64,000 bases of DNA, taken from positions 92,134 to 156,133 of the forward strand of contig OZ243929.1 in assembly GCA_965213995.1 (NCBI GenBank), read 5' to 3'. The translations under genes were made by a program, and so were the position numbers. This document shows positions 4,482-63,965 of this stretch, piece by piece. The notes beneath the pieces are model-generated. The model was not told the DNA's origin, ran no database searches, and saw only the letters and a list, made by a program, of their open reading frames with translations. The first letter of the stretch is position 1. Every line of letters begins with the position of its first letter. Source of the stretch: Gammaproteobacteria bacterium. GTDB taxonomy: Bacteria > Pseudomonadota > Gammaproteobacteria > Steroidobacterales > Foliamicaceae.

Positions 4482-4489
4482 CATCCCGT

Positions 4490-23074: not shown

Positions 23075-23082
23075 CATCCCGT

Positions 23083-40044: not shown

Positions 40045-40949
40045 AGGGCGGCGGCTGGTTCGCCACGTACGGGCTGCTCATTCGTTCCGAGTTGGCGCTG
40101 CCGCTATTCGCCCCCGCCGGGCCTGGCGAGCCGGATGCCGTCGTTCGCCTGGGCGCGGTGCCGGAGGCGCTGCCCCAACCCAGCCGCTCCCGGCGTTATT
40201 GGCAGGCGGCGCCCGGCGACTTCCTGCTGCGCTTCGGAGATGCGTTCCGCTGCCGCGTGACGGACGGCCGCGAAATCACGGTGCATCTCCTGGACGGCGG
40301 GCGCGAGCGGTTCCACTTTGCGAGTTCCGTCTGGACCGCCCTGCTGATGCAGCGCGGATTGCTGCCGCTCCACGCCAGCGCGGTATGGACGGAACAGGAC
40401 GGCGCCGTTCTTATCATGGGCGACTCCGGCGCCGGCAAATCGACGCTCGCCGCAGCGTTGATGGCTCGGGGCTTCAATATGCTCACCGACGATGTGGCCG
40501 CACTGAGCGCCGCTGCGGGTTCGCCGCCCCGCGTCGCGCCCGGCTATCCGAATCTGCGCCTGAAGGCCGATGCCTTGGAACAGGTCGCCACTCTGCCCAA
40601 CGGCATCGACGGCCTGACGCGGCACGGCACGGACAAGCATCTGCTGCCGGCGGAGAGGTTCGCCCGCAAGCCGCAGATTGTCCGTGCCGCCTATGTGCTC
40701 AAAAGAAGGACCGCCGAAGCGCTCGAACTGGAGAAAACGAGATCCGCCGAAGCCTTCCGAACCTTGACGCGTTTCATCCACCGCCCCGGGTACGTCCATG
40801 GATTGGGGCTTGTCGAGGCATACTTCAACATCTTGGCGAGCATCTCCGGGAAATTTCCGGTGACGCATGTGATCCGGCCCGCCGAGGGCATCAAGCCCCG
40901 CGCTTTGGCCCGCCGCATCGAATGCCATCTCGCCGACGGTTCCGTTTAG
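40041..40949 (+). CDS. HPr-kinase-like P-loop protein (HprK-related kinase; candidate precursor Ser kinase) copy 1
   Basis: LHASAVWTEQDGAVLIMGDSGAGKSTLAAALMARGFNMLTDDVAAL resembles the HprK C-terminal kinase core. ATGA overlap with the upstream oxygenase. Confidence 0.7.
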   Translation: MKGGGWFATYGLLIRSELALPLFAPAGPGEPDAVVRLGAVPEALPQPSRSRRYWQAAPGDFLLRFGDAFRCRVTDGREITVHLLDGGRERFHFASSVWTALLMQRGLLPLHASAVWTEQDGAVLIMGDSGAGKSTLAAALMARGFNMLTDDVAALSAAAGSPPRVAPGYPNLRLKADALEQVATLPNGIDGLTRHGTDKHLLPAERFARKPQIVRAAYVLKRRTAEALELEKTRSAEAFRTLTRFIHRPGYVHGLGLVEAYFNILASISGKFPVTHVIRPAEGIKPRALARRIECHLADGSV

Positions 40950-41121: not shown

Positions 41122-41246
41122 TCATTTCGGTGATGGCGGGAGTGGACCAAGGCCGTTTTTCGGGAAGAGCCGGATCGTCTTTACGATGATTGGATCGGGG
41201 GGGGGGGGGTAGCTAAGTTGCGATTCGCGGTCGACTGGCGCTTCAT
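41122..41246 (-). pseudogene. Poly-Pro-tract small ORF, type 1, out of frame as sequenced (candidate OFF state)
   Basis: RBS GAAGGAA, then ATG (41246) MKRQSTANRNLAT + C13. With C14 it would read ..PPPPDPIIVKTIRLFPKNGLGPLPPSPK*, as in the intact twin at 45887..46015. With C13 it stops after 4 codons. Confidence 0.4.
41197..41209. repeat. Homopolymer G13 (C13 on the coding minus strand)
   Basis: ggatcGGGGGGGGGGGGGtagctaagttgcgattc. The flanks are conserved with 45961-45978. Confidence 0.9.
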
Positions 41247-45886: not shown

Positions 45887-46015
45887 TCATTTCGGTGATG
45901 GCGGGAGCGCGCCAAGGCCGTTTTTCGGGAAGAGCCGGATCGTCTTTACGATGTTGGATCGGGGGGGGGGGGGGGGGGTAAGTTGCGATTCCCTATCGGG
46001 CGCTTGATTTTTCAT
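45887..46015 (-). CDS. Poly-Pro-tract small ORF, type 1 (42 aa, in frame)
   Basis: RBS AAGGA, then ATG (46015) MKNQAPDRESQLT-PPPPP-RSNIVKTIRLFPKNGLGALPPSPK*. It is part of track ORF 45887..46078. ~100 nt 3' of the tract are near-identical to 41122-41196. Confidence 0.45.
   Translation of the reverse strand: MKNQAPDRESQLTPPPPPRSNIVKTIRLFPKNGLGALPPSPK
45961..45978. repeat. Homopolymer G18 (C18 on the coding strand)
   Basis: ggatcGGGGGGGGGGGGGGGGGGtaagttgcgattc. Confidence 0.9.
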
Positions 46016-46110: not shown

Positions 46111-47253
46111 CTACGCCAGCCGCCCCAGCCACAGCGCATCCAGAAAGGCTTCCCAGGGCATCACCTCGATGCCGTCAACGAGGCGGCGCACAGGCTCCAA
46201 GCACACCAGCACATGGCGTTTGGCGATGCCTTCCTCCTCAAGCGCCGCAAGTCCGCGCCAGTCGCGGGCGCCGACGTTGGCCTTCGCCTTCACCTCGACA
46301 GCAATGCCCTGAAAAACGAAATCCACCTCGAATCCCGATTTCGACCGCCAGTAACCGGGCGGGTCAAGCTGGCGGTAGCTGCAGTACGCGGAAATTTCCT
46401 GGTGGATGAAGCTCTCGAAGGCTTCGCCGTATTCGGGCGTGCCCGGCGCCAAGCCTTGGCGGCCTTGCAGGTGCCGCGCCAATCCGATGTCGAACAAATA
46501 GTACTTCGAGGTGGAAACCGCCTTGCGCTTGCGGGTCTCCGTGATGGCCGGCATCTCGCGGGCGATGAACGTGTCCTTGAGGATGTCGTAGTAGGCTCTC
46601 GCCGTGGAGGCCGGCACCTGGGCGTCGTTCGCGAAGCTGGCGAAGTTGACCATCTGCCCGTGGGCCAAGGCTGCGGCGCGCAAAAAGCGGCTGAACGCGC
46701 CAACGTTGCGTGCCGCCGCTTCCGCCGCCACCTCTTCTTTGAGGTAGTCGCCGGCATAGGCGGCCAGATCCTCGCGGGGCGCGTCGGAGAAATAGATCGG
46801 CGGCAGCAAACCGTGCTCCAAGGCGCGATGCAGGTCGAAGCGCGCCCCCAGCTCATGCCGGGTGAAAGGGTGCAAGGCGCGGGACCGGGCGCGTCCGCCG
46901 AGCAGGTTCACGCCCTTGCGGCGCAGGCTGCGGGCGCTGGAGCCGGTCATCAGAAAGCGAACGCCATGCCGCTCGATCATCAGATGCACTTCGTTGAGCA
47001 GTTCCGGGAGTTTCTGGATATCGTCAATGACCACAAGGGAAGTTTCGGGCGTCAACGCCTCGCGGATCAGCGCCGGGTTGCGCGAGAGCCGGAGAAAGAG
47101 CGCTTGATCAAGCAGGTCGTAAACCGGGCAGCCGGCCAACTGCTGGCGGATCAGCGTGGACTTGCCGGTCTGGCGGGGGCCGAATAGGAAGCAGGACTTG
47201 CCTGCCAGCACTTCCGCAATCTGGAGATGGCGCGGCACATCGGAATGGATCAT
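46111..47253 (-). CDS. AAA ATPase with DUF4143-type C-terminal domain (second, diverged copy)
   Basis: 380 aa. FLFGPRQTGKSTLIRQ Walker A, VVIDDIQKLPELL, C-terminal ..YWRSKSGFEVDFVFQGIAVEVKAKA. Confidence 0.8.
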   Translation of the reverse strand: MIHSDVPRHLQIAEVLAGKSCFLFGPRQTGKSTLIRQQLAGCPVYDLLDQALFLRLSRNPALIREALTPETSLVVIDDIQKLPELLNEVHLMIERHGVRFLMTGSSARSLRRKGVNLLGGRARSRALHPFTRHELGARFDLHRALEHGLLPPIYFSDAPREDLAAYAGDYLKEEVAAEAAARNVGAFSRFLRAAALAHGQMVNFASFANDAQVPASTARAYYDILKDTFIAREMPAITETRKRKAVSTSKYYLFDIGLARHLQGRQGLAPGTPEYGEAFESFIHQEISAYCSYRQLDPPGYWRSKSGFEVDFVFQGIAVEVKAKANVGARDWRGLAALEEEGIAKRHVLVCLEPVRRLVDGIEVMPWEAFLDALWLGRLA

Positions 47254-47546: not shown

Positions 47547-48197
47547 TCAGCGGATGCGCACCCCGTCCTCATAGAGATGGCCGTCCGGCTCGTTATAGCC
47601 GGAGGGCAGGCTGCGGCCGCAGCCCTCGCCACTCGACAAGAAGCTGCTGTTGCGGGTTTTCCTGACTGCATACGGCTTGGGGTTGCTCCTAATTTCATCA
47701 ACCCAGATGGCCATCATGCCGCTGCCGATGTTCCCGCCAAAGCCCTTGATCACGGCTCCGGTCCTGGGCCGGATATCCAGGGTGAGGTCCCGGTTCAAGG
47801 CTCCGGTTCCAAACGTGGCATAACCGCCTTCTCGACTCGGGGCGAGATTTTGCCACGCTCCACCCTCGCGCCGCCATTCCAGCTGGTTCCATTCAGTGGA
47901 TGGCTGGGTTTTGACTTCAATTCTGACGGTTGATCCGCCAAAGTCTCTGAAGGCGACGGCGGGATTGGTGGACGACAGGCGCAGATGCCAGCGCAAGTGG
48001 TCGCCGCCGCAGCCGCCCACGTGGTAGCCGTTGATGTTGCCGGTGACGGAGATCGTGCATGTTCCAGTTGTGCAGGCGTTCTGCGCCATCACCGCCGATG
48101 GCAGGGCCAGCGTCAGGGCCGCCAATGCGACGATGAGCGCTGTCCGGTGTCCAAGATGTGTTTTGTTCTGGGGGGGGGGGGGGGTGGAGCGGATCAT
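47547..48197 (-). CDS. Secreted protein of unknown function with an N-terminal poly-Pro tract
   Basis: 216 aa. MIRST-PPPP-QNKTHLGHRTALIVALAALTLALPSAVMA|QNACTTGTC... has a signal-peptide-like h-region and an AxA site. The C15 tract occupies codons 5-10. Confidence 0.6.
   Translation of the reverse strand: MIRSTPPPPQNKTHLGHRTALIVALAALTLALPSAVMAQNACTTGTCTISVTGNINGYHVGGCGGDHLRWHLRLSSTNPAVAFRDFGGSTVRIEVKTQPSTEWNQLEWRREGGAWQNLAPSREGGYATFGTGALNRDLTLDIRPRTGAVIKGFGGNIGSGMMAIWVDEIRSNPKPYAVRKTRNSSFLSSGEGCGRSLPSGYNEPDGHLYEDGVRIR
48170..48184. repeat. Homopolymer G15 (C15 on the coding strand)
   Basis: ttctGGGGGGGGGGGGGGGtggagcggatcat. Confidence 0.9.
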
Positions 48198-48317: not shown

Positions 48318-49493
48318 ATGGATGCCCGAACCAACCCTTACGCCCCCGGAGCCGGCGCCCCCCCGCCCGAGCTGGCCGGACGCGATGAACTCATCGACGA
48401 GGCCGCCATTGCCTTGGATCGGATACGCAATGGCTTGGCGGCCAAGAGCCTGCTCATGGTGGGGCTCCGCGGCGTGGGCAAAACCGTGCTCTTGAACCGC
48501 ATCTTCCGGGATGCGGAATGCCGGGGCTTCACCACGCTCCTGCTCGAAGCGCCGGAAGGGCGCTCGCTGCCCGGCTTGCTGGCCGCGCCGCTGCACAGCG
48601 CCCTTGCGAAGATGAGCCGCCGTGCCGCTGCCGGCGATGCCGCAAGGCGGGCGCTCCGGGCGCTTGCCGGATTTGCGCGCGCCATGAAGGTCAATTTCGG
48701 CGACATCAGCATCGGCATCGATATCGAGGCAGAGCCGGGGTTTGCGGACAGCGGCCACTTGGACTTCGACCTGAGCGATCTGCTCGCTGCGGTGGGCGAA
48801 GCCGCAAAGGACCAGAACACCGCGTTCGCACTGTTTATCGACGAACTGCAATACGTTGAGGAAAGCCAGCTTGCCGCCTTGATCGCCGCCCTTCACCGCG
48901 CCGCCCAACGGCAACTCCCCGTCACGCTCATTGGCGCCGGGCTGCCCCAACTCGTAGCCCACGCGGCCGCCGCGAAATCATACGCCGAAAGATTGTTCCG
49001 CTTTCCCGAAATAGGCCCGCTGCCCGAGGATGCGGCCCGACACGCCCTTGAAGCGCCCGCCAGGAAGCGGAATGTGCTTTTTCATCCCGATGCCCTTTCG
49101 GCGATCGTGCGGCGCACGCAAGGCTATCCCTACTTCCTTCAAGAATGGGGCAAGCACAGTTGGGATTGCGCCGAGGCATCCCCGATCACAGCGCAAGATG
49201 TCGATGCGGCCACGGCGCAAGCCACCGCGGAACTGGATGCCAGCTTCTTCCGCGCCCGTTTTGATCGGCTGGCCCCGTCGGAAAAGCGCTATTTGCGGGC
49301 TATGGCGGAGCTGGGTCCGGGGCCGCACCGTTCGGGGGAAATCAGCGGGATGCTCGCCAAGGGCGTGGCAGTCGTCGCGCCGACTCGCGCCAAGCTCATC
49401 GCAAAAGGCATGATCCACAGTCCCGCCCACGGCGACACCGGCTTTACCGTGCCGCTGTTCGACGAATTCCTGCGGCGGGTGCTGCGGGATTGA
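48318..49493 (+). CDS. P-loop ATPase (Orc1/Arch_ATPase-like)
   Basis: 391 aa. LLMVGLRGVGKTVLLN Walker A, FALFIDELQY Walker B. Its stop overlaps the next ORF start (TTGA). Confidence 0.65.
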   Translation: MDARTNPYAPGAGAPPPELAGRDELIDEAAIALDRIRNGLAAKSLLMVGLRGVGKTVLLNRIFRDAECRGFTTLLLEAPEGRSLPGLLAAPLHSALAKMSRRAAAGDAARRALRALAGFARAMKVNFGDISIGIDIEAEPGFADSGHLDFDLSDLLAAVGEAAKDQNTAFALFIDELQYVEESQLAALIAALHRAAQRQLPVTLIGAGLPQLVAHAAAAKSYAERLFRFPEIGPLPEDAARHALEAPARKRNVLFHPDALSAIVRRTQGYPYFLQEWGKHSWDCAEASPITAQDVDAATAQATAELDASFFRARFDRLAPSEKRYLRAMAELGPGPHRSGEISGMLAKGVAVVAPTRAKLIAKGMIHSPAHGDTGFTVPLFDEFLRRVLRD

Positions 49494-51378: not shown

Positions 51379-52338
51379 TCAGATCATGTTGTCGAAATAG
51401 GCGATGGTTTTCTTCAGGCCCTCGCCAAGCGCGATGGACGGCTCCCAGCCCAGCTTCTCCTTGGCCAGCGTGATGTCGGGACAACGCCGGACGGGGTCGT
51501 CCTCTGGCAGCTCCTGGTAGACGAGTTTGGACTTGGTGCCCGTCAGCTCGATCACCTGTTCTGCGAGTTCCTTGATGGAGAACTCCGCGGGATTGCCCAG
51601 ATTGACCGGCCCGGTCAACTCGTCGGGCGCATCCATCAGCCGCCGGAAACCTTCGATCAAATCGTCCACGTAACAAAATGAACGGGTTTGGCTGCCGTCG
51701 CCGTGGATAGTGATGTCGTCGCCCTTGAGAGCCTGGACGATGAAATTGGACACCACCCGCCCGTCACCGGGATGCATCCGGGGGCCATAGGTGTTGAAGA
51801 CCCGGGCCACCCGGATATTCAGATTGTGTTGGCGGCGATAGTCGAAGAACAGGGTTTCCGCGCAGCGCTTGCCCTCGTCATAACAGCCCCGGCGGCCGAT
51901 GGGATTGACGTTGCCCTTGTAATCCTCGGTCTGGGGGTGGATGTCCGGATCTCCGTAAACCTCGCTGGTGGAAGCCTGGAATATCTTTGCCCGGACCCGC
52001 TTGGCCAGCCCCAGCATGTTGATCGCGCCGTGCACGCTGGTCTTGATCGTCTGCACGGGATCGTACTGGTAATGCACCGGAGACGCCGGGCAGGCGAGAT
52101 TATAGATCTCGTCGACTTCGATATAGAGGGGGAATGTCACGTCATGGCGCATCAGCTCGAAATGGGGGGAATCGAACAGGCCGAGGAGGTTGTCCTTGGC
52201 GCCGGTGAAGTAGTTATCGACGCACAGGACATCGTGCCCTTCGGCAACCAGGCGCTCGCAGAGGTGAGAACCGAGAAAACCGGCCCCTCCGGTCACCAGG
52301 ATGCGTTTTTTATGGAGCTTATATCGATTGCTTGACAT
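51379..52338 (-). CDS. uxs: UDP-glucuronate decarboxylase (UDP-xylose synthase)
   Basis: 319 aa. [44 protein letters not shown]. Confidence 0.85.
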
Positions 52339-52561: not shown

Positions 52562-52747
52562 TCAGGAAACACCATAATCTTGGAATTCCGAGTTGAGGGA
52601 GTTTCTCTTTGGGCCAGAGAATGTCTCATCTAGGCCAACCGTTTTGACGGTCGGCGGGTGCCAGGGACGTTTACGGGATTCGCCGCTGCGGTTGCCGGTG
52701 GAGTTGCGCCGATTCTGGGGGGGGGGGGGGGTGGTTGTGGTGGGCAT
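52562..52747 (-). CDS. Candidate lasso-type precursor peptide with N-terminal poly-Pro tract (type 2, in frame)
   Basis: ATG at 52747. MPTTTT-PPPP-QNRRNSTGNRSGESRKRPWHPPTVKTVGLDETF|SGPKRNSLNSEFQDYGVS*. The leader block is conserved with 57928..58126 and 63044..63235, the C-terminus is variable and the last residue is Ser. Part of track ORF 52562..52780. Confidence 0.5.
   Translation of the reverse strand: MPTTTTPPPPQNRRNSTGNRSGESRKRPWHPPTVKTVGLDETFSGPKRNSLNSEFQDYGVS
52717..52731. repeat. Homopolymer G15 (C15 on the coding strand)
   Basis: gattctGGGGGGGGGGGGGGGtggttgtggtgggcat. Confidence 0.9.
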
Positions 52748-53002: not shown

Positions 53003-53302
53003 GTGAGAGGTTACACTTACCGCGTGATACTGAGCTTTCGCCACAAGGGCCTCAAGCTGCTGTTCGAAAAGGGCGACCGGAGAAAAGTGCAATCGGAGTT
53101 CGCGGATAAAATCGAGCGGATACTGGCCCGCCTCGAGGAGTCCTCGACCGTTGACAACATGGACATCCCCGGTTTCCGATTGCACCGGTTGAGAGAAAAC
53201 CTCGCGGGCCGCTGGGCGGTCTCGGTGTCCGGCAATTGGCGGGTGGTCTTCAGATTCGAGGAGGGCCGCGCCAGCGAAGTGGACCTGTTGGACTACCATT
53301 AG
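53003..53302 (+). CDS. higB: HigB-type (RelE superfamily) toxin
   Basis: ..VILSFRHKGLKLLFEKGDRRKV...FRLHRLRENLAGRWAVSVSGNWRVVFRFEEGRASEVDLLDYH. The true start is probably the in-frame GTG at 53024. Confidence 0.75.
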   Translation: MRGYTYRVILSFRHKGLKLLFEKGDRRKVQSEFADKIERILARLEESSTVDNMDIPGFRLHRLRENLAGRWAVSVSGNWRVVFRFEEGRASEVDLLDYH

Positions 53303-53314
53303 GAGCAATCAGCG

Positions 53315-53605
53315 ATGGCTATGAAGAACCCGCCCCATCCGGGCCTCTCCGTAAGGCGCGATTGCCTGGAGCCTTTGGGGCTGAACATCACGGGAGCGGC
53401 CAAGCAACTCGGCGTCAGCCGAAAGCAGCTTTCCGATATCGTGAACTGCCGTGCCGGCATTTCCCCGGAAATGGCCATCCGGCTTGACAAGGCGTTTGGA
53501 GGCGGCGCCGAAACCTGGCTGAGGCTCCAAGCGGCTTATGACCTGGCGCGGGCAATGAAGCGCGCGGATCAATTCAAAGTGCGGAGGTTGCGGCCGGCGG
53601 CATGA
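53315..53605 (+). CDS. higA: HigA-type antitoxin (XRE HTH)
   Basis: [77 protein letters not shown]. Confidence 0.8.
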
Positions 53606-54404
53606 TCCGGTAGCCGAAGTGCTCCAGCAAATCGGCGCGGCTGCCGAATACGCGGTTGAACGCCTCGATTTTCGCGGCGTCGAGCCGGTCGATTTGCCGG
53701 CGGTTCATGTTGGCGAGCATCTCGTCGTACATCCCGTCCTTCACCCGCAGGCGCTGGCGCAGCTTGAGGTCGCGCAGTTCGGGAACCAGCGCGCGGATCC
53801 GCTCCTCGACCTCATGCGGCGCATCGCACATGTCCTCGTAGGTGAAAAAAGCCCCCCGGCCGCCGTGCCGCTCCAGGTTCCGGCGCTGCAGTTCCATGCA
53901 GGCGACGACATGCCGCGCGGCCGCGGAGGGGAGGTCGCCGCCGAAGCGGACGGCCTTCCGGGGCTGGTTCCTGCAAATGCCTTCGCACACGGCGTAGGGG
54001 TTGCGCACCATGAACAGGAACTTGGCGTTCGGAAAGTGCCGCGCGAGCTCGTCCACATGCAGCAGGAAATGCGGCGTCTTGGTGTAGAACACGGAGGCGG
54101 CGGGGTCGCGGGCGAACGCCTGGAAGTGCCAGGCTTTGCGTGTGCGCGGCCAGTCGTAGGCGTCCGGGTCGGCCAGACGGCTCCGCCATTCGGGCTCGCT
54201 CCAGATCAGCCCGCCGTGCTTGAGCGTGGTGGGGCCGGCGAAGCCGAGCGCGAACTGGCCTTCCCGCGGCAGGTTCCAGGTTGCCTTGCTGGTCGCCATC
54301 GCCTCCTTGAGGAAACTGGAGCCGCTGTTGTTCGGCGCGATGCCGAAAAGGTGCGTGCGAACGGCGCGCTCGAGGTCGTGCATCGCCCCGTACGCCGCGC
54401 TCAT
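53574..54404 (-). CDS. Sulfotransferase-family protein (copy 3)
   Basis: ATG at 54404 overlaps the GT8 stop (ATGA). ..[18 protein letters not shown].. (P-loop-like), ..[15 protein letters not shown]... It is the C-terminal part of track ORF 53574..55349. The assignment is tentative. Confidence 0.5.
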
Positions 54405-55396
54405 GGCGGCTTCCCCGCCTGTTCGCCGCCGCCAACACCGGCAGGCCCGCCGAAGGCGCGCGTCGCCAAGGCGGGCCAGGCCCGTCGGAGATGCGCGTCG
54501 TTCAGGCAGGCCAGCCACGCCTCGTGCCACCAGGCATAGGCCGGATGGGGGGCGAAAGCGGGGTCGCCGTCGGTCCAGCGCAGCATGGCGGCGGCGCTCC
54601 AGGGCTTGACCGGGCCGGTGAAGTGCAGCACCTTCGCGTCCTTCGGCGCCAGCCCCTCGCGCGCCAGAATCGCCTCCCTCATGTGCAGCGGATAGTTGTA
54701 AGTCGAACTGACCAGGCTTTGCCGTCCCGCGAAGTGCTGGTTCAGCAGGAACTGGTCGTTGGTGTGGACCGTGTCCGTGCCGCGCCAGGCGTCCGGCGCG
54801 ACCCGGCCCAGCAGCTCCGCGTAGGCGCGCTCGCCCGTCAGGCGCTCGTCGATAAGCAAAAACCCGGAATTGAACGTCCGCTCCAGCGCGCCTTTCGCCC
54901 CCGCAAGGGCGGGGCTGGCGAGCGGCTGGAACGAGACGGCATCGCGGCATCCTCCTGCCATGGACACGGAATCCCCGCAGCAGATCAGCGCCTCCCGGCG
55001 GTCGAAGAGTTCCCAGACCGGGCCGCGGAACAGGAGGTCGCTGTCGCAATAGAGCACCTTGCGGTAGCCGGCGATGCGGAACGCCTCCAGGCAGTGGAAG
55101 CTGGAAAGCCACCGCCGCTTCGCCAATGGCCAGCCGGCGAAGGCGGCCAGGCGGCGTCGCAGCGCGGGGCGCACCGGCTCCGGCCGCAGCGCCGGACAGG
55201 CTCGCGCCAGCGCCGCGCGGCGCTTGGCGGACAGTCCGTTGTGGAACAGCAGCATCCCGCCGCAAAAGCCGGGATGCTGCTGTAGAAACGAATGGGCGGC
55301 GACGATGGCGCCGGGCAGGAATTTCTCGGTGGCGGCCAGCGCGATGCAAACGTCCGCTCCGCGGCCGGCCGGGATGCCTGGCGGCTTAGAAGTCAA
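54401..55396 (-). CDS. Glycosyltransferase family 8-like
   Basis: 331 aa. ..VCIALAATEKFLPGAIVAAHSF.., ..VLYCDSDLLF.. (DxD), ..FNSGFLLID... It overlaps the cyclase-2 stop by 11 nt. Confidence 0.6.
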   Translation of the reverse strand: MTSKPPGIPAGRGADVCIALAATEKFLPGAIVAAHSFLQQHPGFCGGMLLFHNGLSAKRRAALARACPALRPEPVRPALRRRLAAFAGWPLAKRRWLSSFHCLEAFRIAGYRKVLYCDSDLLFRGPVWELFDRREALICCGDSVSMAGGCRDAVSFQPLASPALAGAKGALERTFNSGFLLIDERLTGERAYAELLGRVAPDAWRGTDTVHTNDQFLLNQHFAGRQSLVSSTYNYPLHMREAILAREGLAPKDAKVLHFTGPVKPWSAAAMLRWTDGDPAFAPHPAYAWWHEAWLACLNDAHLRRAWPALATRAFGGPAGVGGGEQAGKPP

Positions 55397-57263
55397 GGAA
55401 CTGCAACGCCTGGATCAAGGGCCTGGGGCGCAGGTGGCGGCGAATGCGGGCAGGGTCGAAGTCGCCCAGCAGTTCAAGGTCGCGCGTCAGGCGGCCCAGG
55501 TTCAGGTAGCGGCCGCGCGCCGTTCCCGCGCCGCCGCCGGCGATCATCGAGCGCGCTTGCGCCAAGGTTTCGGCAAGCGCGTCCCTATAGGCCCGGTACC
55601 GAGCGGGGTCCGTTTTGTCGCGGTTCCGCAGCACCAGTTCGGGCAGCACTTCGCGCTGGGAACGCCGCATCAGCCGCCGGCTTTCGGGGCCGCGGAGGAA
55701 CTGCTCCGGCGGCAGCGCCAGGACGAATTCCAGCAGCCGGCGGTCCAGCAGCGGATAGCGGTACTCGATTCCCAGCCGCGCCCCGCTCGCGGCCCAGCCT
55801 TCGATGCGCCTGTCGATATAGCCGCTCGCAAGCAGGCCGAGCTGGACCGCTCGCGCGCCGGCCACCGGGACCGTCGGCGGCATGGGCAGCAGGCGGGCGC
55901 GGCGGGCGAAATCGGGGTGCAGGTAGCGGCCCGTCGGCGGCAGCGGCGTCTTGCCTTGGCGCAGCCGCCAAAGCGTGTCCCTCAAGGTTCTCACCGGTTC
56001 CATGGCTTGGACAAACGGCAGCGCCGCGCAGCGCGCGATGCCGAGCAGGGGAAAGCGGCGGTGCCCGAACTCGCGCCGCAGCGCCGCGAGCCGGCCTTTG
56101 CGCAAGAGGTCGGGGTGGTAGCCGCGGCCGCTGAACGAGACCCCCTCGTCGCCGCCCCAGCCGGACAGCAGCACGCCCACGCCCTGCGCCGCTGCCGAAC
56201 GCTGCACGGGGCATTCGTTGAGGTGGTAGCTGTCGTGCCGGGTCACATCGCGGCGCAAGGTCGCCAGCATATCGGCGGCAGTGGGCGGGCAGTGGTGGAC
56301 CTCCAGGCCCTCCTGGGCCGCGACCGCTTCGACAAGGCGGTATTCGCCGCCGGGAGCGGCGTCGCGGCTCCCCTCCGCCGCCTCGGGCAGCCAGGTGAAC
56401 GCAGGCGGGGCAGGGCGGCCCGCGGCCCGCAGCGCCCGGGCCGCGAGCGCCGAAACGCAGGAGGAGTCGAGGCCGCCGCTCAGATGCACGCCCACGCGGC
56501 GGGGGCCGCCCGCGCGATCCGCCACCGCGGCGGCGCACAGCGCGAGGCAGGCCTCGGCGGCTTCGCCGTCGTCGATGCGGCCAAGCGCGGGAATCCGCTC
56601 CGGATGCCACCAGCGCCGCACGCGCCAGCCGCCGGCTTGTGCCAATAGCAAGTGGCCCGGCGGCAGGCGCCGCACCGCGCGGTGGAACGTGCGTTCGCCG
56701 AACGGCCAGAAAATGTGGCGGGCAAGCCAGGAGGCGGTCGCGTCCTCGTCCAGGTCCGCCTCCACGCCGGGCGCCGCGAGCACCGCGTTCACGTCGCTGG
56801 CGAACACGATGCGGTCCGCCGCGGCGGCGTAGTAGAGCGGCCGGGCGCCAATGTGGTCCCGGGCAATAAGCAGCCGGCGGCGTTCGGCGTCCCACGCGGC
56901 GAAAGCGTAATCGCCGTACAGCCGCTGCGGACACTCCGCGCCCCATTTGCGCCAGGCGCGCAAAATCAACTCCGCGTCCGTCAGCGGCTCGTCCTTTCGT
57001 TCGGAAACGCCCAGCGCGGCGCGCAACTCGTCGCGCCCGTCGATGCGGGCGCTTGCGACCACCCAATCGCCCGCGCCGCCGCGCGCGCAGCAGGCCGCGC
57101 CGTCCGCCGCCTCATGCCCGCGCCAGCCCAAGCGGGCCGCTTCCGCCGTCCAGGCCGCGGTGGCATCTGTTCGGCGCCCCGGCAGGGCGGCCACCATGGC
57201 ATCGAGCGCCGCCGCGCCGGGGTCGCCGCGCAAGGCTTGGATTCCGCAGATCATGCTGGCCAT
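55386..57263 (-). CDS. Asparagine-synthetase-like protein, lasso-cyclase type (copy 2)
   Basis: 625 aa. MASMICGIQ (no Cys2), ..VVASARIDGRDELRAALG.., SGGLDSS PP-loop. The first ~147 codons are duplicated at 63523-63965. Confidence 0.75.
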   Translation of the reverse strand: MASMICGIQALRGDPGAAALDAMVAALPGRRTDATAAWTAEAARLGWRGHEAADGAACCARGGAGDWVVASARIDGRDELRAALGVSERKDEPLTDAELILRAWRKWGAECPQRLYGDYAFAAWDAERRRLLIARDHIGARPLYYAAAADRIVFASDVNAVLAAPGVEADLDEDATASWLARHIFWPFGERTFHRAVRRLPPGHLLLAQAGGWRVRRWWHPERIPALGRIDDGEAAEACLALCAAAVADRAGGPRRVGVHLSGGLDSSCVSALAARALRAAGRPAPPAFTWLPEAAEGSRDAAPGGEYRLVEAVAAQEGLEVHHCPPTAADMLATLRRDVTRHDSYHLNECPVQRSAAAQGVGVLLSGWGGDEGVSFSGRGYHPDLLRKGRLAALRREFGHRRFPLLGIARCAALPFVQAMEPVRTLRDTLWRLRQGKTPLPPTGRYLHPDFARRARLLPMPPTVPVAGARAVQLGLLASGYIDRRIEGWAASGARLGIEYRYPLLDRRLLEFVLALPPEQFLRGPESRRLMRRSQREVLPELVLRNRDKTDPARYRAYRDALAETLAQARSMIAGGGAGTARGRYLNLGRLTRDLELLGDFDPARIRRHLRPRPLIQALQFLDF

Positions 57264-57298: not shown

Positions 57299-57424
57299 TT
57301 GCATCGGCCAACAGCAGCGGATGCCGATCCGGATTAGGAGAAAAGGCTATAGCACAGCGCACCCAACCAACTCCCACGGCGCCGCGGTGCGGGGCAACTG
57401 CAAAGCGGCCCCACATCCGTAATG

Positions 57425-57528
57425 AGGATGCGTTCCCCGCTCTCGAAAACACGGCGCGCTTTCTCGGCCTGCGCCTCGTCGTCCCTCAACAAGTAGCGGA
57501 GCAAGACATTGGCATCGACTGCGATCAC
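57425..57528 (-). pseudogene. vapC: VapC-type PIN toxin, N-terminal remnant
   Basis: The GTG at 57528 overlaps the antitoxin stop (GTGA). VIAVDANVLLRYLLRDDEAQAEKARRVFESGERILITDV; the sense then breaks at ~57425. Confidence 0.6.
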
Positions 57529-57761
57529 CGCGTTTGAGTTCTTTTGCTTTCCATCGCGCACTGAAGCGATTGCTCATCCGAAACCGCTTCGTCCGACCGA
57601 AGATGAGCAAGGCACCCCCAAGCGCTGCCGGGCTGCTGGCGGACTATGGTGATGCGTCCGTCGGCGACGAAACTTCGGCATTCATCGCCTAGCTCCATGC
57701 CAGCCAGACGACACTGGCTGGCCGGTAGCGTCAACTGCCGCTTGGCGCCGACTTTAGGCAC
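57525..57761 (-). CDS. AbrB/SpoVT-family antitoxin (VapB/MazE-like)
   Basis: 78 aa. MPKVGAKRQLTLPASQCRLAGMELGDECRSFVADGRITIV is a swapped-hairpin AbrB-type N-terminus. Confidence 0.6.
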   Translation of the reverse strand: MPKVGAKRQLTLPASQCRLAGMELGDECRSFVADGRITIVRQQPGSAWGCLAHLRSDEAVSDEQSLQCAMESKRTQTR

Positions 57762-57927: not shown

Positions 57928-58126
57928 CTAGCTTTGTTCTTCTCCAAGAAAGAATCCATATGATGGGGATTCCTCCTGAACGGCATTAAATCTGGGGGAG
58001 CCTCGCGTCTCAGTCAGTTCAACCGTTTTGACGGTCGGCGGGCGCCAGGAGCGTTTGCGGGGTTCGCCGCTACGGTTGTCGGCGGAGTTGCCCGAATTCT
58101 GGGGGGGGGGGGGGGGTATTTGACAT
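57928..58126 (-). pseudogene. Candidate lasso-type precursor (type 2), out of frame by 1 nt at the tract (candidate OFF state)
   Basis: RBS GAGGAAG, then ATG (58126) MSNT + C16. With C15 it reads PPPPQNSGNSADNRSGEPRKRSWRPPTVKTVELTETR|GSPRFNAVQEESPSYGFFLGEEQS*. As sequenced it stops after ~18 codons. Confidence 0.45.
58101..58116. repeat. Homopolymer G16 (C16 on the coding strand)
   Basis: gaattctGGGGGGGGGGGGGGGGtatttgacat. Confidence 0.9.
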
Positions 58127-58483: not shown

Positions 58484-59074
58484 TTAGACGGTGATTTTTC
58501 TCCTGATGTGGAGGGCAGCATAGCATCGGGTGGAGCTCGGACGGCGCCTTTCGGAGCGAGGGCGCAGCCCGAACGGAGAAAGGCGCCGTCCGAGCCCGGT
58601 TTTCTCCGGTGCTGCGCCCCGGCAGAGGCGCCGGGCCGCGACCCGGGCGCGGCGGCGCGCCTTCCTGCCCCGCCGACGAAGGTGACGGTGCAGCGTCCCG
58701 CCACTCGCCCGATCCTCCCAGACTTGGCGGTATATCCACGTCTTGCCCACCGACGGACCGCCCTCAAGGCGCAAACGCCCAGCGATCTGCTCAGGACTCC
58801 ACTTCAGCCGCAGCTTCCCCTCGATCCGGCCCCGCAACTCCGCCGTCAGCTTGCGCGGACGCGACGACGCCTCGCGCCGGCGAGCCTCCGACAGCCGCTG
58901 CGCCTGCTTCATCCGGTAGCCCCGAAGCCCGCCGTTGCGGCGCAACTCCCGGCTCGCCGTAGAGGCCGAAACCCCCAGCACACGCGCAACCCCCCGAATC
59001 GACTCGCCGCTTTTCCTCAGCGCGTAAATCTGGCATCGTGACCCGTAGGTCAGGTGACGGTAGCCTCTGGCCAT
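58484..59074 (-). pseudogene. IS30-family transposase, N-terminal part only
   Basis: MARGYRHLTYGSRCQIYALRKSGESIRGVARVLGVSASTASRELRRN...KWSPEQIAGRLRLEG is the IS30 HTH region. The catalytic DDE region is absent, and an 18-bp-stem hairpin (58535-58595) interrupts the 3' part. Confidence 0.7.
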
Positions 59075-59172
59075 CGAACACCCTCCTTCTTCCAATATCG
59101 GAGAGTATCGCCGTCACTTGGCCTCCTTCTCAAATCATCCGTTGCACTTCATAGTGGAACGGGCGACACTAC

Positions 59173-61843: not shown

Positions 61844-61941
61844 CGATACCTTCCGAGTACTGCTACCAAATCGGTGAATGATTATGCATCATTCACATCA
61901 GTAATCCTCAATTCAAGCAAGTTCCCTATAAGCTCTTGCTT

Positions 61942-62700
61942 TTACTGATTGTTCTGCAGTTTCACCCGGTACGCCAGATGCTGCATACAGGCGAACGCCA
62001 TGAAGGCGATGGCCAGATGGGCGCGGATGCGTTTCGGGGTCCAGTGGAAGATGGGCCGCACCTTCAGGTCGTGCTTGTTGACGCGAAAGCCGTGCTCCAC
62101 CCGCCACAGGCCGCGGTAGCGCTCCCACAGCTCGGGCCGCGGACATTGGTGGCCGCGCCGCGCAAGCCGTCCCAGCGGGCGGCCTCGGCGATCTTGTCCG
62201 GGGCGACCTCCCAGCGGCCTTCGCCGCGCATCCGCAAGAATCGGCCCATTCCCTTCGGCAACAGGGATTTTGGCTTGCCGCTCTTGTTGAGCTTGTCCAG
62301 CAATCGCTTGACCCCCCGCTGCCGATCCTTTTTGCCCTTGGCCGCCCGTTTCGGACTGTGCGCCACCACGATGCGCCGGCCGCAGTGGCGGAACACGGCG
62401 ACTTTGCCGCCCGCCTCCATCGCCGCCGCCCCCGGTAACGGCCCGTTTCCACAATCCGCTCCTTCAATGGCTTCGGCAGCGACTGCAAACGCGCCCCGAC
62501 GATGTAGCGGTGCCCTTCGGATTCCAGACCGGCCAGGTTATCCCCGCCGAACATCCCCGCGTCGGCCACGCACACCGCCTCGAGCCCCGGATGCCGCTCG
62601 CGCATCTCCGCCATCATCGGCAAAAAGGTCCTGTCCTCGTATTGCGCGCCGGGGAACACCCCGTACCCCACCGGCCCGCCCCGCGCATGTCAAGCATCAA
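61942..62700 (-). mobile_element. IS1634/IS4-type transposase, 3' part, frameshifted
   Basis: Readable across three frames: ..GYGVFPGAQYEDRTFLPMM..VCVADAGMFGGDNL.., ..FRHCGRRIVVAHSPKRAAK.., ..YRGLWRVEHGFRVNKHDLKVRPIFHWTPKRIRAHLAIAFMAF... The N-terminal half is missing. Confidence 0.6.
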
Positions 62701-63043
62701 TAATCACTAGGCAGAACAAAACGGGTCCCGGAAACCCGCCAGGAAAACCCGAACAAAATCAAACGGGTACGAAAATGGAAATCGCGGTCAGGCGGCTAAA
62801 CCGTCGAAGTCATGATGACGTCCGGCTCCGCGCCGAAAGGGGCCGGGTGGAACGGAACGGCGATTTCGGAATGGAAGATCAGCTCGTAGGCGGTGTTTGC
62901 GGCAACGGCTCCGGTGCGGTCACTGGGCTTTTCCTCAAGGACGGTGTTCATGCCCTGTCATGCTGTTGAAAGTAGCTGGCACCTGATGGCACCAGTCTCC
63001 CCATGGTCCGACATGATGGGGCCCGAACAGGACACCAAGCCAA

Positions 63044-63235
63044 TCAGGAATCCTGCAAAAAGTATTCACCAAATTCGGTTGATAAGCTCGAATTATCACC
63101 AGATCGGGTCTCCCCTAGGTTGACCGTTTTGACGGTCGGCGGGCGCCAGGAGCGTTTGCGGGGTTTCTCTAGAAATTCAGGGGGGGGGGGGGGGGGGGGG
63201 GTAAGGTTGCGATTCTTGTTAGGCCGGGATCTCAT
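63044..63235 (-). CDS. Candidate lasso-type precursor, hybrid (type-1 N-terminus + type-2 leader/core), in frame
   Basis: RBS AGGAGG, 9 nt, then ATG (63235). MRSRPNKNRNLT-PPPPPPP-EFLEKPRKRSWRPPTVKTVNLGETR|SGDNSSLSTEFGEYFLQDS*. Part of track ORF 63044..63289. Confidence 0.5.
   Translation of the reverse strand: MRSRPNKNRNLTPPPPPPPEFLEKPRKRSWRPPTVKTVNLGETRSGDNSSLSTEFGEYFLQDS
63180..63201. repeat. Homopolymer G22 (C22 on the coding strand)
   Basis: aaattcaGGGGGGGGGGGGGGGGGGGGGGtaaggttgcgattc. Confidence 0.9.
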
Positions 63236-63392
63236 TCGACTGTACCTCCTTTCGGGAGTTGGCGTTGGCAAGAGCGTCAACTGTAACAAACCCCCGCGAT
63301 ATGTAAACTACCCGCAAGCTGCGGCCTCAGTCCGTCGGCTCGCCGATGAAGATCGGTGCGCGCGCGCCAAGCCGTTTCGTCGCCGGGAGCTT

Positions 63393-63965
63393 TCAGGCCC
63401 GCTCCACCTCGAACGCCGCCAAGTTGCGGTCGGACTTGCTGAATTCGACGGCGACCAGGTGGATCGGCTCGCCCAAGGCGCGGTACTTCCCGGCGTAGTC
63501 CCTGGCTTTCAACTGCGCCATCGCGGCGGCGTAGTAGAGCGGCCGGGCGCCAATGTGGTCCCGGGCAAGAAGCAGCCGGCGGCGTTCGGCGTCCCACGCG
63601 GCGAAAGCGTAATCGCCGTACAGCCGCTGCGGACACTCCGCGCCCCATTTGCGCCAGGCGCGCAAAATCAATTCCGCGTCCGTCAGCGGCTCGTCCTTTC
63701 GTTCGGAAACGCCCAGCGCGGCGCGCAACTCGTCGCGCCCGTCGATGCGGGCGCTTGCGACCACCCAATCGCCCTCGCCGCCGCGCGCGCAGCAGGCCGC
63801 GCCGTCCGCCGCCTCATGCCCGCGCCAGCCCAAGCGGGCCGCTTCCGCCGTCCAGGCCGCGGTGGCATCTGTTCGGCGCCCGGGCAGGGCGGCCACCATG
63901 GCATCGAGCGCCGCCGCGCCGGGGTCGCCGCGCAAGGCTTGGATTCCGCAGATCATGCTGGCCAT
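63393..63965 (-). pseudogene. Chimeric ORF: first ~147 codons of the cyclase fused to the C-terminal tail of an unrelated (PD-(D/E)XK / AAA-ATPase-like C-terminal type) gene
   Basis: Identical to cyclase 2 up to ..ARPLYYAAA, then MAQLKARDYAGKYRALGEPIHLVAVEFSKSDRNLAAFEVERA*. The junction is at ~63523. Confidence 0.7.

What the first reader, a model, noticed from the sequence alone, without database searches (positions are those of the whole stretch)
63044..63235. Hybrid precursor: the poly-C tract looks like a recombination joint between interchangeable 5' and 3' cassettes
Seen: two kinds of sequence occur 5' of the tract on the coding strand.
- Type A: ..AATCGCAAC(C)TTA(GCT)A-Cn, encoding MK.Q..NRNL(A)T / MRSRPNKNRNLT.
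- Type B: M..T(T)-Cn-CAGAA(T/C), encoding ..T-Pn-QN.
Two kinds occur 3' of it.
- Type 1: ..IVKTIRLFPKNGLG.LPPSPK*.
- Type 2: ..RKR.W.PPTVKTV.L.ET + variable core.
The observed combinations are A+1 (41122..41246, 45887..46015), B+2 (52562..52747, 57928..58126), B + signal peptide (47547..48197) and, here, A+2. This copy also has the longest tract (C22) and lacks ~30 nt (QN..GN...NRSGE) found in the other type-2 leaders.
Inference: the homopolymer acts as a shared microhomology at which 5' (RBS/start) modules and 3' (leader/core) modules are shuffled. That would be a way to re-deploy or re-activate silent cassettes.
Basis: inference. Interest (0 to 1): 0.75.

Follow-up and report, generated by a model that had tools for sequence, protein, structure and literature searches.

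The report
Poly-C switch in lasso-peptide precursor genes
A small gene for a lasso-peptide antibiotic-like precursor carries a 22-base run of C just after its start codon; such runs recur in a whole family of neighbouring genes, change length between related genomes (a likely on/off switch), and mark the exact points where gene "front ends" and "back ends" have been swapped, although in this particular copy the recent swap happened 40-80 bases further downstream.

Summary
63044-63235 (-) is an intact 63-aa lasso-peptide precursor of the phosphorylated class with a C-terminal Ser. Translation has to read through a C22 tract 12 codons after the only available ATG.

Checked and correct: the tract, the coordinates and the listed combinations.

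- "Type 1" was read in the wrong frame. It is a second lasso-leader subfamily.
- "Type B" 5' flanks are not homologous to one another.
- The missing leader stretch is 22 nt, not about 30.

Family evidence, from 53 tracts in the window plus eight related MAG loci:
- Tracts are 9-29 nt long.
- They differ in length between orthologues.
- They show no mod-3 preference.
- About a quarter are in frame.
This is the signature of slipped-strand contingency loci.

Homology blocks end exactly at the tracts:
- Flanks can be 300/300 nt identical on one side and unrelated from the first base on the other.
- One 2.2-kb indel has endpoints that share nothing but poly-C.
The recombination-joint idea is therefore supported for the family.

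It is not supported for this copy. Its A+2 joint is conserved in five genomes (C22/C19/C14/C13/C13). Its own chimerism maps to the 43-nt conserved leader block at 63123-63165, a fusion of two adjacent precursor genes.

Verdict: a new variant of known kinds. Reactivation of silent cassettes remains untested.

The parts
63280..63307 (-). Sigma-70-like promoter of the 5' module: TTTACA, 16-nt spacer, TG-TACAGT.
   Evidence: consensus scan only. The stretch is conserved in the orthologous 5' modules of L001, L002, L004 and L006.
63245..63251 (-). Ribosome-binding site AAGGAGG, 9 nt upstream of the ATG.
   Evidence: Read from the sequence.
63202..63235 (-). Start codon (63235-63233) and N-terminal codons MRSRPNKNRNL(T). 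This is the 'type A' 5' coding module and ends in GAATCGCAACCTTA.
   Evidence: Identical in L001:832, L002:6147, L012:6170 and L013:12460.
63180..63201 (-). C22 homopolymer, encoding poly-Pro. It is hypermutable and sets the reading frame.
   Evidence: Orthologues carry C14, C19, C13 and C13.
63166..63179 (-). Shortened N-part of the leader (EFLEK). It is a net 22 nt shorter than in full-length type-2 leaders.
   Evidence: Compare L011:10035, which has the same 5' module with a full-length leader.
63123..63165 (-). Conserved leader block (KPRKRSWRPPTVKTV). It is the overlap between the two parental lineages, so it is the recombination joint of this copy.
   Evidence: W 63528..63123 matches L001:832, L002:6147 and L013 12133-12529 at 95-96%. 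W 63165..62812 matches L003:7163 at 93.5% and L013 14541-14909 at 87%. The block is 100% identical to the 58101 copy.
63044..63103 (-). Putative core peptide SGDNSSLSTEFGEYFLQDS plus the stop codon. It follows the leader end ..GETR, which has Thr at -2, and it ends in Ser.
   Evidence: Most related cores also end in Ser, the kinase substrate described in PMC8498205. The cleavage site is inferred.
62796..62951 (-). Truncated N-terminus (51 aa) of an HPr-kinase-like lasso kinase gene. It is cut off by IS-related sequence at about 62812.
   Evidence: MNTVLEEKPSDRTGAVAA.. matches the 314-325-aa kinase-like genes of L001 and L006.
63393..63965 (-). Chimeric ORF upstream: the N-terminus of a lasso cyclase fused at about 63522-63528 to the tail of an AAA-ATPase_like/PDDEXK_9 gene.
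   Evidence: Pfam finds GATase_7 followed by PDDEXK_9 in one 190-aa ORF.
58101..58116 (-). Sister tract C16 in a type-2 precursor (ATG at 58126). It is out of frame as assembled and would need C15 or C18. This tract is a homology breakpoint.
52717..52731 (-). Sister tract C15 in a type-2 precursor (52747-52562). It is in frame.
48170..48184 (-). Sister tract C15 after codon 4 of a 216-aa secreted Cys-containing protein (48197-47547). It is in frame.
   Evidence: No Pfam or NCBIfam hit.
45961..45978 (-). Sister tract C18 in a precursor of the second leader subfamily (..EKRPWRAPAITEMTIGSST..). It is out of frame in the frame supported by homology.
41197..41209 (-). Sister tract C13 in a precursor of the second leader subfamily, lying downstream of the cyclase gene 41368-43308. 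It is out of frame.

Best explanation
WHAT IT IS. The feature is a lasso-peptide precursor gene of the kinase-associated class with a C-terminal Ser. Its 5' coding region contains a hypermutable poly-C tract. The gene belongs to a multi-copy family with six copies in this window and 3-7 per 20 kb in eight related gammaproteobacterial MAG loci.

HOW IT IS BUILT. Each unit consists of a promoter/RBS/ATG module, then 3-14 codons, then C9-C29, then a leader-plus-core or a secreted protein.

STEP 1, SHOWN. There is no in-frame start downstream of the tract, so translation must pass through it. Tract length differs in every orthologous comparison. Length shows no mod-3 preference, and only about a quarter of copies are in frame.

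STEP 2, INFERRED. Replication slippage therefore switches each copy on or off, as at classical contingency loci. Each cell would express a changing subset of peptides and secreted proteins.

STEP 3, BOUNDARIES SHOWN, MECHANISM INFERRED. The tracts are co-oriented perfect repeats spaced 1.6-5 kb apart. They also act as crossover or template-switch points. Tract-to-tract deletions and duplications re-pair 5' expression modules with different 3' genes.

STEP 4, SHOWN FOR THIS COPY. The A + short-type-2 joint at the tract is old and is conserved in five genomes. The copy is nevertheless a hybrid. Two adjacent precursor genes, units A and B, were fused by a deletion of about 2 kb between their conserved 43-nt leader blocks (63123-63165). 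The deletion removed core A, PqqD, the sulfotransferase, the next 5' module and its tract. The copy now sits in a rearranged remnant between a truncated cyclase chimera and an IS-truncated kinase gene.
For: LASSO CONTEXT
- Asn-synthase-type cyclases have NF033535 as their best hit.
- PqqD, HPr-kinase-like, sulfotransferase, GT8 and NTP_transf_5 genes are present.
- The Transglut_core3 peptidase is present in L011.
- The leader has WxPPxVKTVxLxET with Thr at -2, and most cores end in Ser.
- This class is described in PMC8498205.

HYPERMUTABLE TRACT
- Orthologous lengths are C22/C19/C14/C13/C13 for this gene.
- Other orthologous pairs read C16/C18, C28/C17, C17/C21, C26/C16 and C23/C14.
- Across 53 tracts the lengths are 9-29 nt, with mod-3 classes of 15/20/18.
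- 7 of 28 copies are in frame.
- In-situ expansion is seen directly: gene 20664-22136 has G19 (GGGGGG) where its paralogue has GGGGCGG (GG).

MODULE BOUNDARIES
- Anchored flank comparisons, match-end enrichment and combination tables all place boundaries at the tracts.
- One search shows a 2.2-kb indel with endpoints that share only poly-C.

JOINT OF THIS COPY
- map it to the leader block.
Against: - No read-level or population data were available, so switching within a population has not been observed.
- The related genomes are long-read MAG assemblies. Contig names such as ctg10139_848x_c appear. Exact lengths of 13-29-nt homopolymers, and therefore individual on/off calls, may be off by a base or two.
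- Several breakpoints at tracts can also be explained by crossover anywhere within a repeated 5' module plus tract, for example the 79-nt module shared by L005:7627 and L005:9392. The tract then marks only the edge of the repeat.
- Four of the five orthologues of this gene are in frame. That hints at selection for ON rather than free switching.
- The B2 peptidase was not found in the window itself.
Confidence: 0.7

Rival explanations
1. It holds that the C22 tract at 63180-63201 is itself the joint at which a type-1-style 5' module was recombined onto a type-2 leader and core, re-deploying a cassette.
For: - The 14-nt motif GAATCGCAAC(C)TTA, plus about 50 nt of weak similarity, is shared only with the 5' flanks of the type-1 units.
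- Tract-bounded exchanges clearly occur elsewhere in the family.
Against: - The joint has identical flanks in five genomes.
- The same 5' module carries full-length type-2 leaders in L011:10035, L004:6903 and L006:3889.
- A-like N-termini pair with type-2 leaders in L002:3716 and L003:5275.
- Type-1 and type-2 leaders are homologous to each other, so A+1 and A+2 can both descend from one ancestor.
- No high-identity comparison has a breakpoint at this tract.
Confidence: 0.15
2. The tracts are pure phase-variation switches and are not recombination sites. On this view the mosaic pattern comes from ordinary homologous recombination in the repeated 5' modules and leader blocks, or from independent gain of tracts.
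For: - This copy's own joint lies in the leader block.
- The L005/L006 indel is flanked by a 79-nt repeated module plus the tract.
- Tracts can arise in place by expansion.
Against: - The L002/L006 2.2-kb indel has endpoints with no homology other than poly-C.
- Unrelated 3' genes (a signal-peptide protein, leader subfamily 2, leader subfamily 1) follow the same 5' module, and divergence starts at the first base after the tract.
Confidence: 0.2
3. The tracts or the joints are assembly or sequencing artefacts, for example chimeric joins or homopolymer miscalls in long-read metagenome assemblies.
For: - All the genomes compared are MAGs.
- At least two related lineages came from one sample, ERZ25070844.
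- Long homopolymers are error-prone on long-read platforms (general knowledge).
Against: - The same joints recur in independently assembled chromosomes and in a separate analysis, ERZ25072149.
- Tracts always sit at the same codon position in paralogues.
- An artefact would not place C13-C29 runs after start codons 45 times.
- Long reads span several units.
Confidence: 0.04
4. The tract lets the gene be expressed in any frame. RNA polymerase slippage or ribosomal frameshifting on the long C run would yield some in-frame product whatever the DNA length. On this view DNA length is nearly neutral and the tract tunes expression level, including poly-Pro/EF-P-dependent stalling, rather than acting as a switch.
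For: - Lengths are random with respect to frame.
- The tract encodes Pro in every frame.
- Transcriptional slippage on long homopolymers is established for A/T runs (general knowledge).
Against: - Slippage efficiency on C/G runs has not been tested here.
- This reading does not explain why homology breaks fall at the tracts.
- Four of the five orthologues of this gene are in frame, which suggests that DNA frame matters.
Confidence: 0.15

Closest known systems
Homopolymeric G/C-tract contingency loci (Campylobacter jejuni, Neisseria, Helicobacter pylori, Bordetella; e.g. PMC8355987, PMC1891110, PMC5320596)
   Same: - An intragenic poly-G/C run lies close to the start codon.
- Length is polymorphic between close relatives.
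- Frame-dependent on/off states are expected.
- The genes cluster among those for secreted or surface products. Tracts also occur here in a Wzy_C-like gene and an SGNH/AlgX-like gene.
   Different: - The tracts are much longer: 9-29 nt with a median of 16, against typically 8-13 nt.
- The hosts are uncultured, high-GC environmental gammaproteobacteria.
- The targets are RiPP precursor genes.
- The tracts double as boundaries of exchanged modules.
- Switching itself has not been observed here.
Kinase-associated (phosphorylated or phosphoglycosylated) lasso peptides: paeninodin, the proteobacterial polyphosphorylated lasso peptides and pseudomycoidin (review PMC8498205)
   Same: - The clusters carry a cyclase, PqqD (B1), an HPr-kinase homologue, a nucleotidyltransferase and a sulfotransferase.
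- Precursors end in Ser.
- The leader has Thr at -2.
   Different: - Each cluster has many precursor paralogues in two leader subfamilies.
- A poly-Pro/poly-C tract lies inside the leader.
- The first acidic residue sits at core position 9-11, depending on the cleavage site.
- The precursors hit no NCBIfam model.
H. pylori babA/babB chimeras, and Neisseria opa and pilE/pilS gene conversion (from my own knowledge)
   Same: Paralogous loci exchange 5' and 3' parts. A repeat-bearing 5' end then confers phase-variable expression on a different 3' coding part.
   Different: In those systems exchange uses extended flanking homology, or a G4-dependent pathway at pilE. The repeat itself is not the joint. 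Here at least one exchange has only the homopolymer as shared sequence.
Prochlorosin-type RiPP precursor families, with a conserved leader and a hypervariable core (from my own knowledge)
   Same: Many precursor paralogues share a near-identical leader block, and new leader/core pairs arise at that block. This is the kind of event that produced the 63123-63165 joint.
   Different: The RiPP class differs (lanthipeptides). No homopolymer tract or frame switch is involved.
RecA-independent deletion and duplication between short direct repeats by replication misalignment (from my own knowledge of E. coli studies)
   Same: Co-oriented perfect repeats of 13-29 nt, spaced a few kb apart, would yield exactly the tract-to-tract indels seen between L002 and L006.
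   Different: The mechanism was not tested here. It is normally treated as a source of damage, not as a recurrent way of re-pairing expression modules.

Membership tests
Lasso peptide precursor (RiPP) | Encoded next to a lasso cyclase, which is an Asn-synthase homologue. | tested here: met
   - Cyclases lie at 41368-43308 and 55386-57263, with a truncated copy at 63393-63965.
- They hit PF00733 and GATase_7.
- Their best NCBIfam hit is NF033535, below its curated cut-off.
Lasso peptide precursor (RiPP) | An RRE/PqqD (B1) protein and a B2 transglutaminase-like leader peptidase are present in the cluster. | tested here: inconclusive
   - PqqD lies at 39126-39452 in the window and follows the precursors in all related loci.
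- Transglut_core3 was found in L011.
- It was not found among the window ORFs that were scanned.
Lasso peptide precursor (RiPP) | The leader has a conserved penultimate Thr. The core starts with G/A/S/C and has Asp or Glu at position 7-9. | tested here: inconclusive
   - Thr at -2 (..GET-R | S..) is conserved across copies.
- The first acidic residue falls at position 9-11, depending on the assumed cleavage site.
- The precursors hit no NCBIfam precursor model.
Kinase-associated (phosphorylated) lasso peptides | An HPr-kinase homologue is in the cluster, and the precursor has a C-terminal Ser. | tested here: met
   - Hpr_kinase_C genes are present at 40041-40949 and L001 4218-5195, with a truncated copy at 62796-62951.
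- 25 of the 26 full-length lasso precursors end in Ser.
- The class is defined in PMC8498205.
Simple-sequence-repeat contingency (phase-variable) locus | The repeat lies inside the reading frame or the promoter, so that its length sets expression. | tested here: met
   - The tract lies 12 codons after the only ATG.
- There is no in-frame start between the tract and the core.
Simple-sequence-repeat contingency (phase-variable) locus | Repeat length is polymorphic between close relatives while the flanks stay conserved. | tested here: met
   - This gene shows C22/C19/C14/C13/C13 with flanks 95-96% identical.
- Every other orthologous pair also differs in length.
Simple-sequence-repeat contingency (phase-variable) locus | Reversible, high-frequency switching occurs within a population. 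| not testable with these tools
   No reads or cultures were available. Only consensus assemblies could be examined.
Recombination joint / module exchange at the tract | Homology between copies ends at the tract on one side while remaining high on the other side. | tested here: met
   - This is met for the family.
- It is not met at 63180-63201 itself: no high-identity comparison has a breakpoint at this tract, and the copy's own joint maps to the leader block.
Integron-like or site-specific cassette system | A dedicated recombinase and structured recombination sites flank the cassettes. | tested here: not met
   - No integrase or site-specific recombinase was found among the scanned ORFs. Only IS fragments and ATPase/nuclease genes of unknown role were seen.
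- The shared site is a bare homopolymer.
- There are no Rfam hits.

The most novel reading that the evidence does not exclude
The co-oriented poly-C tracts form a selected, two-level diversification system for a natural-product arsenal.
- Level 1: slippage switches each lasso precursor or secreted-protein gene on and off.
- Level 2: tract-to-tract recombination treats the DNA between successive tracts as exchangeable cassettes. Each cassette carries a gene body plus the next promoter/start module. This recombination might be triggered by G-quadruplex or R-loop formation on the G-rich strand.

A symbiont population would then continually re-pair expression modules with different peptide cassettes. 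That would be a homopolymer-based analogue of cassette arrays, without a dedicated recombinase.
Probability: 0.25. Interest if true: 0.85.

Novelty: new variant of a known kind. Interest (0 to 1): 0.68.

Why it matters
**For RiPP biology.** RiPP precursor genes are not known to be under simple-sequence-repeat control. Full-text searches pairing 'lasso peptide' with 'phase variation' found only two irrelevant papers. Searches combining RiPP, precursor peptide and homopolymeric tract found none. If the tracts do switch, uncultured gammaproteobacteria would vary which modified lasso peptides and secreted proteins each cell makes. That would extend contingency-locus biology from pathogens' surface antigens to secondary metabolites.

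**For recombination.** Breakpoints exactly at the tracts suggest that long homopolymers can serve as the only homology for re-pairing promoters with genes. This is directly testable with existing long-read data.

**For annotation.** Gene callers will mis-frame or miss most of these precursors. About three quarters are out of frame as assembled. Genome-mining counts of lasso peptides in such genomes will therefore be too low.

Tried and rejected
- **Exact-protein look-ups.** The window's own precursors, both cyclases and the epimerase-family (PF01370) gene at 51379-52338 gave nothing on record.
- **Metagenome scan.** Scanning with the 20-mer of the conserved leader block returned three unrelated chance hits.
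- **RNA searches.** Rfam and tRNA scans of the window found nothing.
- **Precursor family models.** NCBIfam scans of five precursor sequences returned no hit.
- **Literature.** Searches for phase-variable lasso peptides, RiPP plus homopolymeric tract, sponge symbiont plus homopolymeric, and homopolymeric tract plus recombination breakpoint found nothing relevant in bacteria.
- **Stable poly-Pro segment (rejected).** Lengths show no mod-3 preference and differ between orthologues.
- **Translation starting downstream of the tract (rejected).** There is no in-frame ATG or GTG before the core.
- **Integron-like system (rejected).** No recombinase and no structured recombination sites were found.
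Another frame carries the lasso-leader motif and gives longer ORFs that are conserved across loci.
Full report
**1. What is at the coordinates**

The + strand carries G22 at 63180-63201. This is the longest homopolymer in the window. Runs of C9 or longer occur 68 times, against 1.4 expected from dinucleotide-preserving shuffles, with a maximum of 7.

On the minus strand an ORF runs from the ATG at 63235 to the stop at 63044. It reads MRSRPNKNRNLT-P7-EFLEKPRKRSWRPPTVKTVNLGETRSGDNSSLSTEFGEYFLQDS*.

Signals upstream of the ATG:
- An AAGGAGG ribosome-binding site lies 9 nt upstream.
- A sigma-70-like promoter (TTTACA, 16-nt spacer, TG-TACAGT) lies at 63307-63280.

No ATG or GTG lies in frame between the tract and the core. 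Translation must therefore pass through the tract.

**2. What kind of gene it is**

The surrounding 28 kb holds lasso-peptide machinery:

| Gene | Coordinates |
|---|---|
| Asn-synthase-type cyclase | 41368-43308 |
| Asn-synthase-type cyclase | 55386-57263 |
| Truncated cyclase copy | 63393-63965 |
| PqqD | 39126-39452 |
| HPr-kinase-like | 40041-40949 |
| Asp/Arg hydroxylase-like | 39406-40044 |
| GT8 glycosyltransferase | 54401-55396 |
| Sulfotransferase | ORF 53574-55349 (Sulfotransfer_3 domain at its C-terminal end) |
| NTP_transf_5 | 36133-37407 |

- The cyclases have NF033535, the lasso cyclase model, as their best NCBIfam hit.
- In the related locus L011 the cluster also has the Transglut_core3 leader peptidase.
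- The leaders carry W-x-P-P-x-V-K-T-V-x-L-x-E-T with Thr at -2.
- Most cores end in Ser. Ser is the substrate of lasso HPr-kinase homologues, as described in PMC8498205.
- The precursors themselves hit no NCBIfam model.
- The first acidic residue of the core falls at position 9-11, depending on the assumed cleavage site. Ring size is therefore open.

**3.

(a) *Type 1 was read in the wrong frame.* Another frame gives ..RKDDPALPEKRPW(R/S)(A/T)PAITEMTI(G/E)S(S/F)T followed by a core. This is a second lasso-leader subfamily. It also occurs with long N-extensions in L004:8556, L006:5544 and L002:16120. In that frame both type-1 copies in the window are out of frame with their ATG.

(b) *Type B is not a class of homologous 5' flanks.* The three flanks fall in separate clusters. 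The defining CAGAA(T/C) lies 3' of the tract. AGAA follows 24 of 53 tracts.

(c) *Type A is real but short.* GAATCGCAAC(C)TTA abuts the tract, and about 50 nt of roughly 60% similarity runs back to the RBS. Nothing is shared upstream of that.

(d) *The shortened leader lacks a net 22 nt*, that is 16 nt against 38 nt.

**4. Related genomes**

A search with the cyclase found six loci, L001-L006, in five complete MAG chromosomes. These are labelled Pseudomonadales, Gammaproteobacteria, Ca. Azophilus and Pseudohongiella, and the cyclase is 88-99% identical.

A protein search plus contig look-ups added L011-L013.

The window is a distinct genome, 82-99% identical across the matched stretches and mosaic.

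Every locus carries 3-7 tracts of C9-C29 placed 3-14 codons after an ATG.

**5. The tracts are hypermutable**

Orthologues with flanks 95-100% identical differ in tract length every time:
- This gene: C22 (window), C19 (L002:6147), C14 (L001:832), C13 (L012:6170) and C13 (L013:12460).
- Other pairs: C16/C18, C28/C17, C17/C21, C26/C16 and C23/C14.

Other measures point the same way:
- Across 53 tracts the length ranges from 9 to 29 nt with a median of 16.
- The three mod-3 classes are equally populated, at 15/20/18.
- Only 7 of 28 copies are in frame with their proximal ATG. This is compatible with one third (binomial p = 0.43).
- A tract can grow in place. Gene 20664-22136 has G19, encoding GGGGGG, where its 70%-identical paralogue 1027-2487 has GGGGCGG, encoding GG. 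Both flanks are homologous.

This is the pattern of slipped-strand contingency loci.

Two caveats apply:
- These are long-read MAG consensus sequences. Contig names such as ctg10139_848x_c appear. Single-base accuracy of long homopolymers is not assured, and no reads were available.
- Four of the five orthologues of this particular gene are in frame. By my own calculation, the chance of at least 4 of 5 in frame at one third per copy is about 0.045.

**6. The tracts are module boundaries**

*Anchored comparisons.* Flanks were extended outward from each tract; the null maximum score was 5.
- 30 pairs share the 5' flank while the 3' flank is unrelated from the first base after the tract.
- 102 pairs show the converse.

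| Pair | 5' flank | 3' flank |
|---|---|---|
| L005:7627 vs L006:9385 | 300/300 | 0 |
| L002:7768 vs L005:6019 and L006:7773 | 0 | 300/300 |
| L002:7768 vs L003:7163 | 291 | 0 |

*Unbiased test.* Of 311 distinct interior ends of megablast matches, 23 lie within 10 nt of a tract. Random placement gives 2.8 on average and at most 11 in 1000 trials. Some of these ends may be matches split by a difference in tract length.

*Classification.* Typing 60 nt on each side of 52 of the tracts gives 19 5' types, 15 3' types and 27 combinations. One complete four-combination square is present. A second is visible by eye: the MSN-type and MSRSI-type 5' modules each occur with both the AGAATTCGGGC and the AGAATTCAGAC leaders (W:58101, L001:5594, L013:14492, L013:16157).

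*The cleanest case*.
- L002 6009-7786 matches L006 3764-5556 and ends inside a tract.
- L002 7768-11000 matches L006 7778-10997 at 98.7% and starts inside a tract.
- The 2.2 kb between the two L006 tracts holds a precursor, a kinase gene, a truncated cyclase and the next 5' module. It is absent from L002.
- The four flanks share nothing but poly-C.

The simplest mechanism is inferred, not shown. It is misalignment or unequal exchange between co-oriented tracts, so that the DNA between successive tracts behaves as a cassette.

**7. This copy**

No high-identity comparison has a breakpoint at the 63180-63201 tract.

Its 5' module, tract and short leader (63528-63123) match L001:832, L002:6147, L012:6170 and L013:12460 at 95-96%.

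Its leader 3' part, core and downstream gene (63165-62812) match a different unit:
- L003:7163 at 93.5%
- L001:3945 at 88%
- L013 14541-14909 at 87%

The two matches overlap in the 43-nt conserved leader block at 63123-63165, which is 100% identical to the 58101 copy.

In L013 the two parental units lie 2.0 kb apart in the same orientation. PqqD, a sulfotransferase and the next 5' module with its tract lie between them. The window copy is thus a deletion-fusion of two adjacent precursor genes through the leader block.

The A + type-2 pairing itself is widespread:
- L011:10035 has the same 5' module, including CGCAACCTTA, then C29 and a full-length leader.
- L004:6903 and L006:3889 lack the last 10 nt before the tract.
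- L002:3716 and L003:5275 have A-like N-termini with type-2 leaders.

Because type-1 and type-2 leaders are homologous, A+2 may be ancestral.

The neighbourhood is a rearranged remnant:
- The ORF 63393-63965 fuses a cyclase N-terminus to a PDDEXK_9 tail at about 63522-63528.
- The kinase gene downstream is cut to 51 codons by IS-related DNA.

**8. Comparison with known systems**

| Known system | Relation to this finding |
|---|---|
| Homopolymeric-tract contingency loci of Campylobacter, Neisseria, Helicobacter and Bordetella (one search lists reviews) | Closest functional analogue |
| Kinase-associated lasso peptides (PMC8498205) | Closest biosynthetic relatives |
| babA/babB, opa and pilE/pilS paralogue chimeras (own knowledge) | Resemble the exchange of 5' and 3' parts, but use flanking homology |
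| Integron-like systems | Excluded: no recombinase, no structured sites |

No paper in the searchable library links RiPP precursors with repeat-mediated switching.

**9. Verdict**

- The combination found here is a new variant of known kinds. It comprises hypermutable poly-C tracts inside lasso-peptide precursor and secreted-protein genes, with the tracts also marking the exact ends of exchanged segments.
- It merits follow-up with read-level data.

Noticed in passing
window 21013-21031 (gene 20664-22136, minus strand) versus 1027-2487: A 490-aa SGNH/AlgX-like gene carries G19 on its coding strand, encoding GGGGGG. Its 70%-identical paralogue has GGGGCGG, encoding GG. This is an in-frame, in-place tract expansion with both flanks homologous. 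Both genes lie next to paralogous carbamoyltransferase genes (4301-6325 and 22972-24918), which suggests a large segmental duplication.
   Followed up: partly
window 38924-38936; L004:853-864; L011:3950-3963: A G13 tract lies 31 nt before the stop of a Wzy_C (O-antigen ligase-like) gene inside the lasso cluster. Tracts of C12 and C14 also lie in the Wzy_C genes of two related genomes, about 110 nt before the stop in L011. Length changes would alter the C-terminus of the protein.
   Followed up: partly
window 47547-48197 (-); L002:7702-8583; L005:6019; L006:7773; L013:16510: A family of secreted Cys-containing proteins (216-294 aa, with a signal peptide, and no Pfam or NCBIfam hit) carries the same kind of poly-C tract after codons 3-6. 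These genes sit among the lasso units. Their function is unknown.
   Followed up: partly
window 63393-63965 (-): A 190-aa chimeric ORF fuses the N-terminus of a lasso cyclase (GATase_7) to the last ~40 residues of an AAA-ATPase_like/PDDEXK_9 protein. The junction lies at about 63522-63528, where the two matches overlap by about 7 nt.
   Followed up: partly
window 43558-44862 (+), 46111-47253 (-), 48318-49493 (+); L006 1997-3547; L011 8135-9682: ATPase genes of unknown role recur between the precursor units. They are of the AAA_14/DUF4143, AAA_16 and AAA-ATPase_like/PDDEXK_9 types. Whether the nuclease-ATPase has any part in the rearrangements was not examined.
   Followed up: no
window 53003-53605 (+) and 57334-57761 (-); L001/L002/L006 about 13700-14800: Type II toxin-antitoxin pairs are interspersed between the lasso genes. 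They include HigB-like/HTH and AbrB-like/PIN, the latter partly degraded. IS fragments lie at 58484-59095 and 61913-62671.
   Followed up: no
L001:3945, L001:9145, L004:8556, L006:5544, L011:11678 (5' modules): The commonest 5' module has two ATGs in different frames, ..AAATGAGGAAGCCCTCATG.. . Two of the three tract-length classes could therefore give an in-frame product. In the window copy (58101) the upstream ATG is ACG.
   Followed up: no
all units (window and L001-L013): AGAA directly follows 24 of 53 tracts and TGAA a further 6. This includes downstream sequences that are otherwise unrelated, such as a leader and a signal peptide. The base before the tract is A in 34 of 53 cases. The reason is unknown.
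   Followed up: partly
precursor cores, e.g. window 52562-52747, 57928-58126 and 63044-63103: If cleavage follows the conserved Thr(-2)-x, the first Asp or Glu of the core is at position 10-11, not the usual 7-9. Either the cleavage site is shifted by one or two residues or the rings are unusually large.
   Followed up: no
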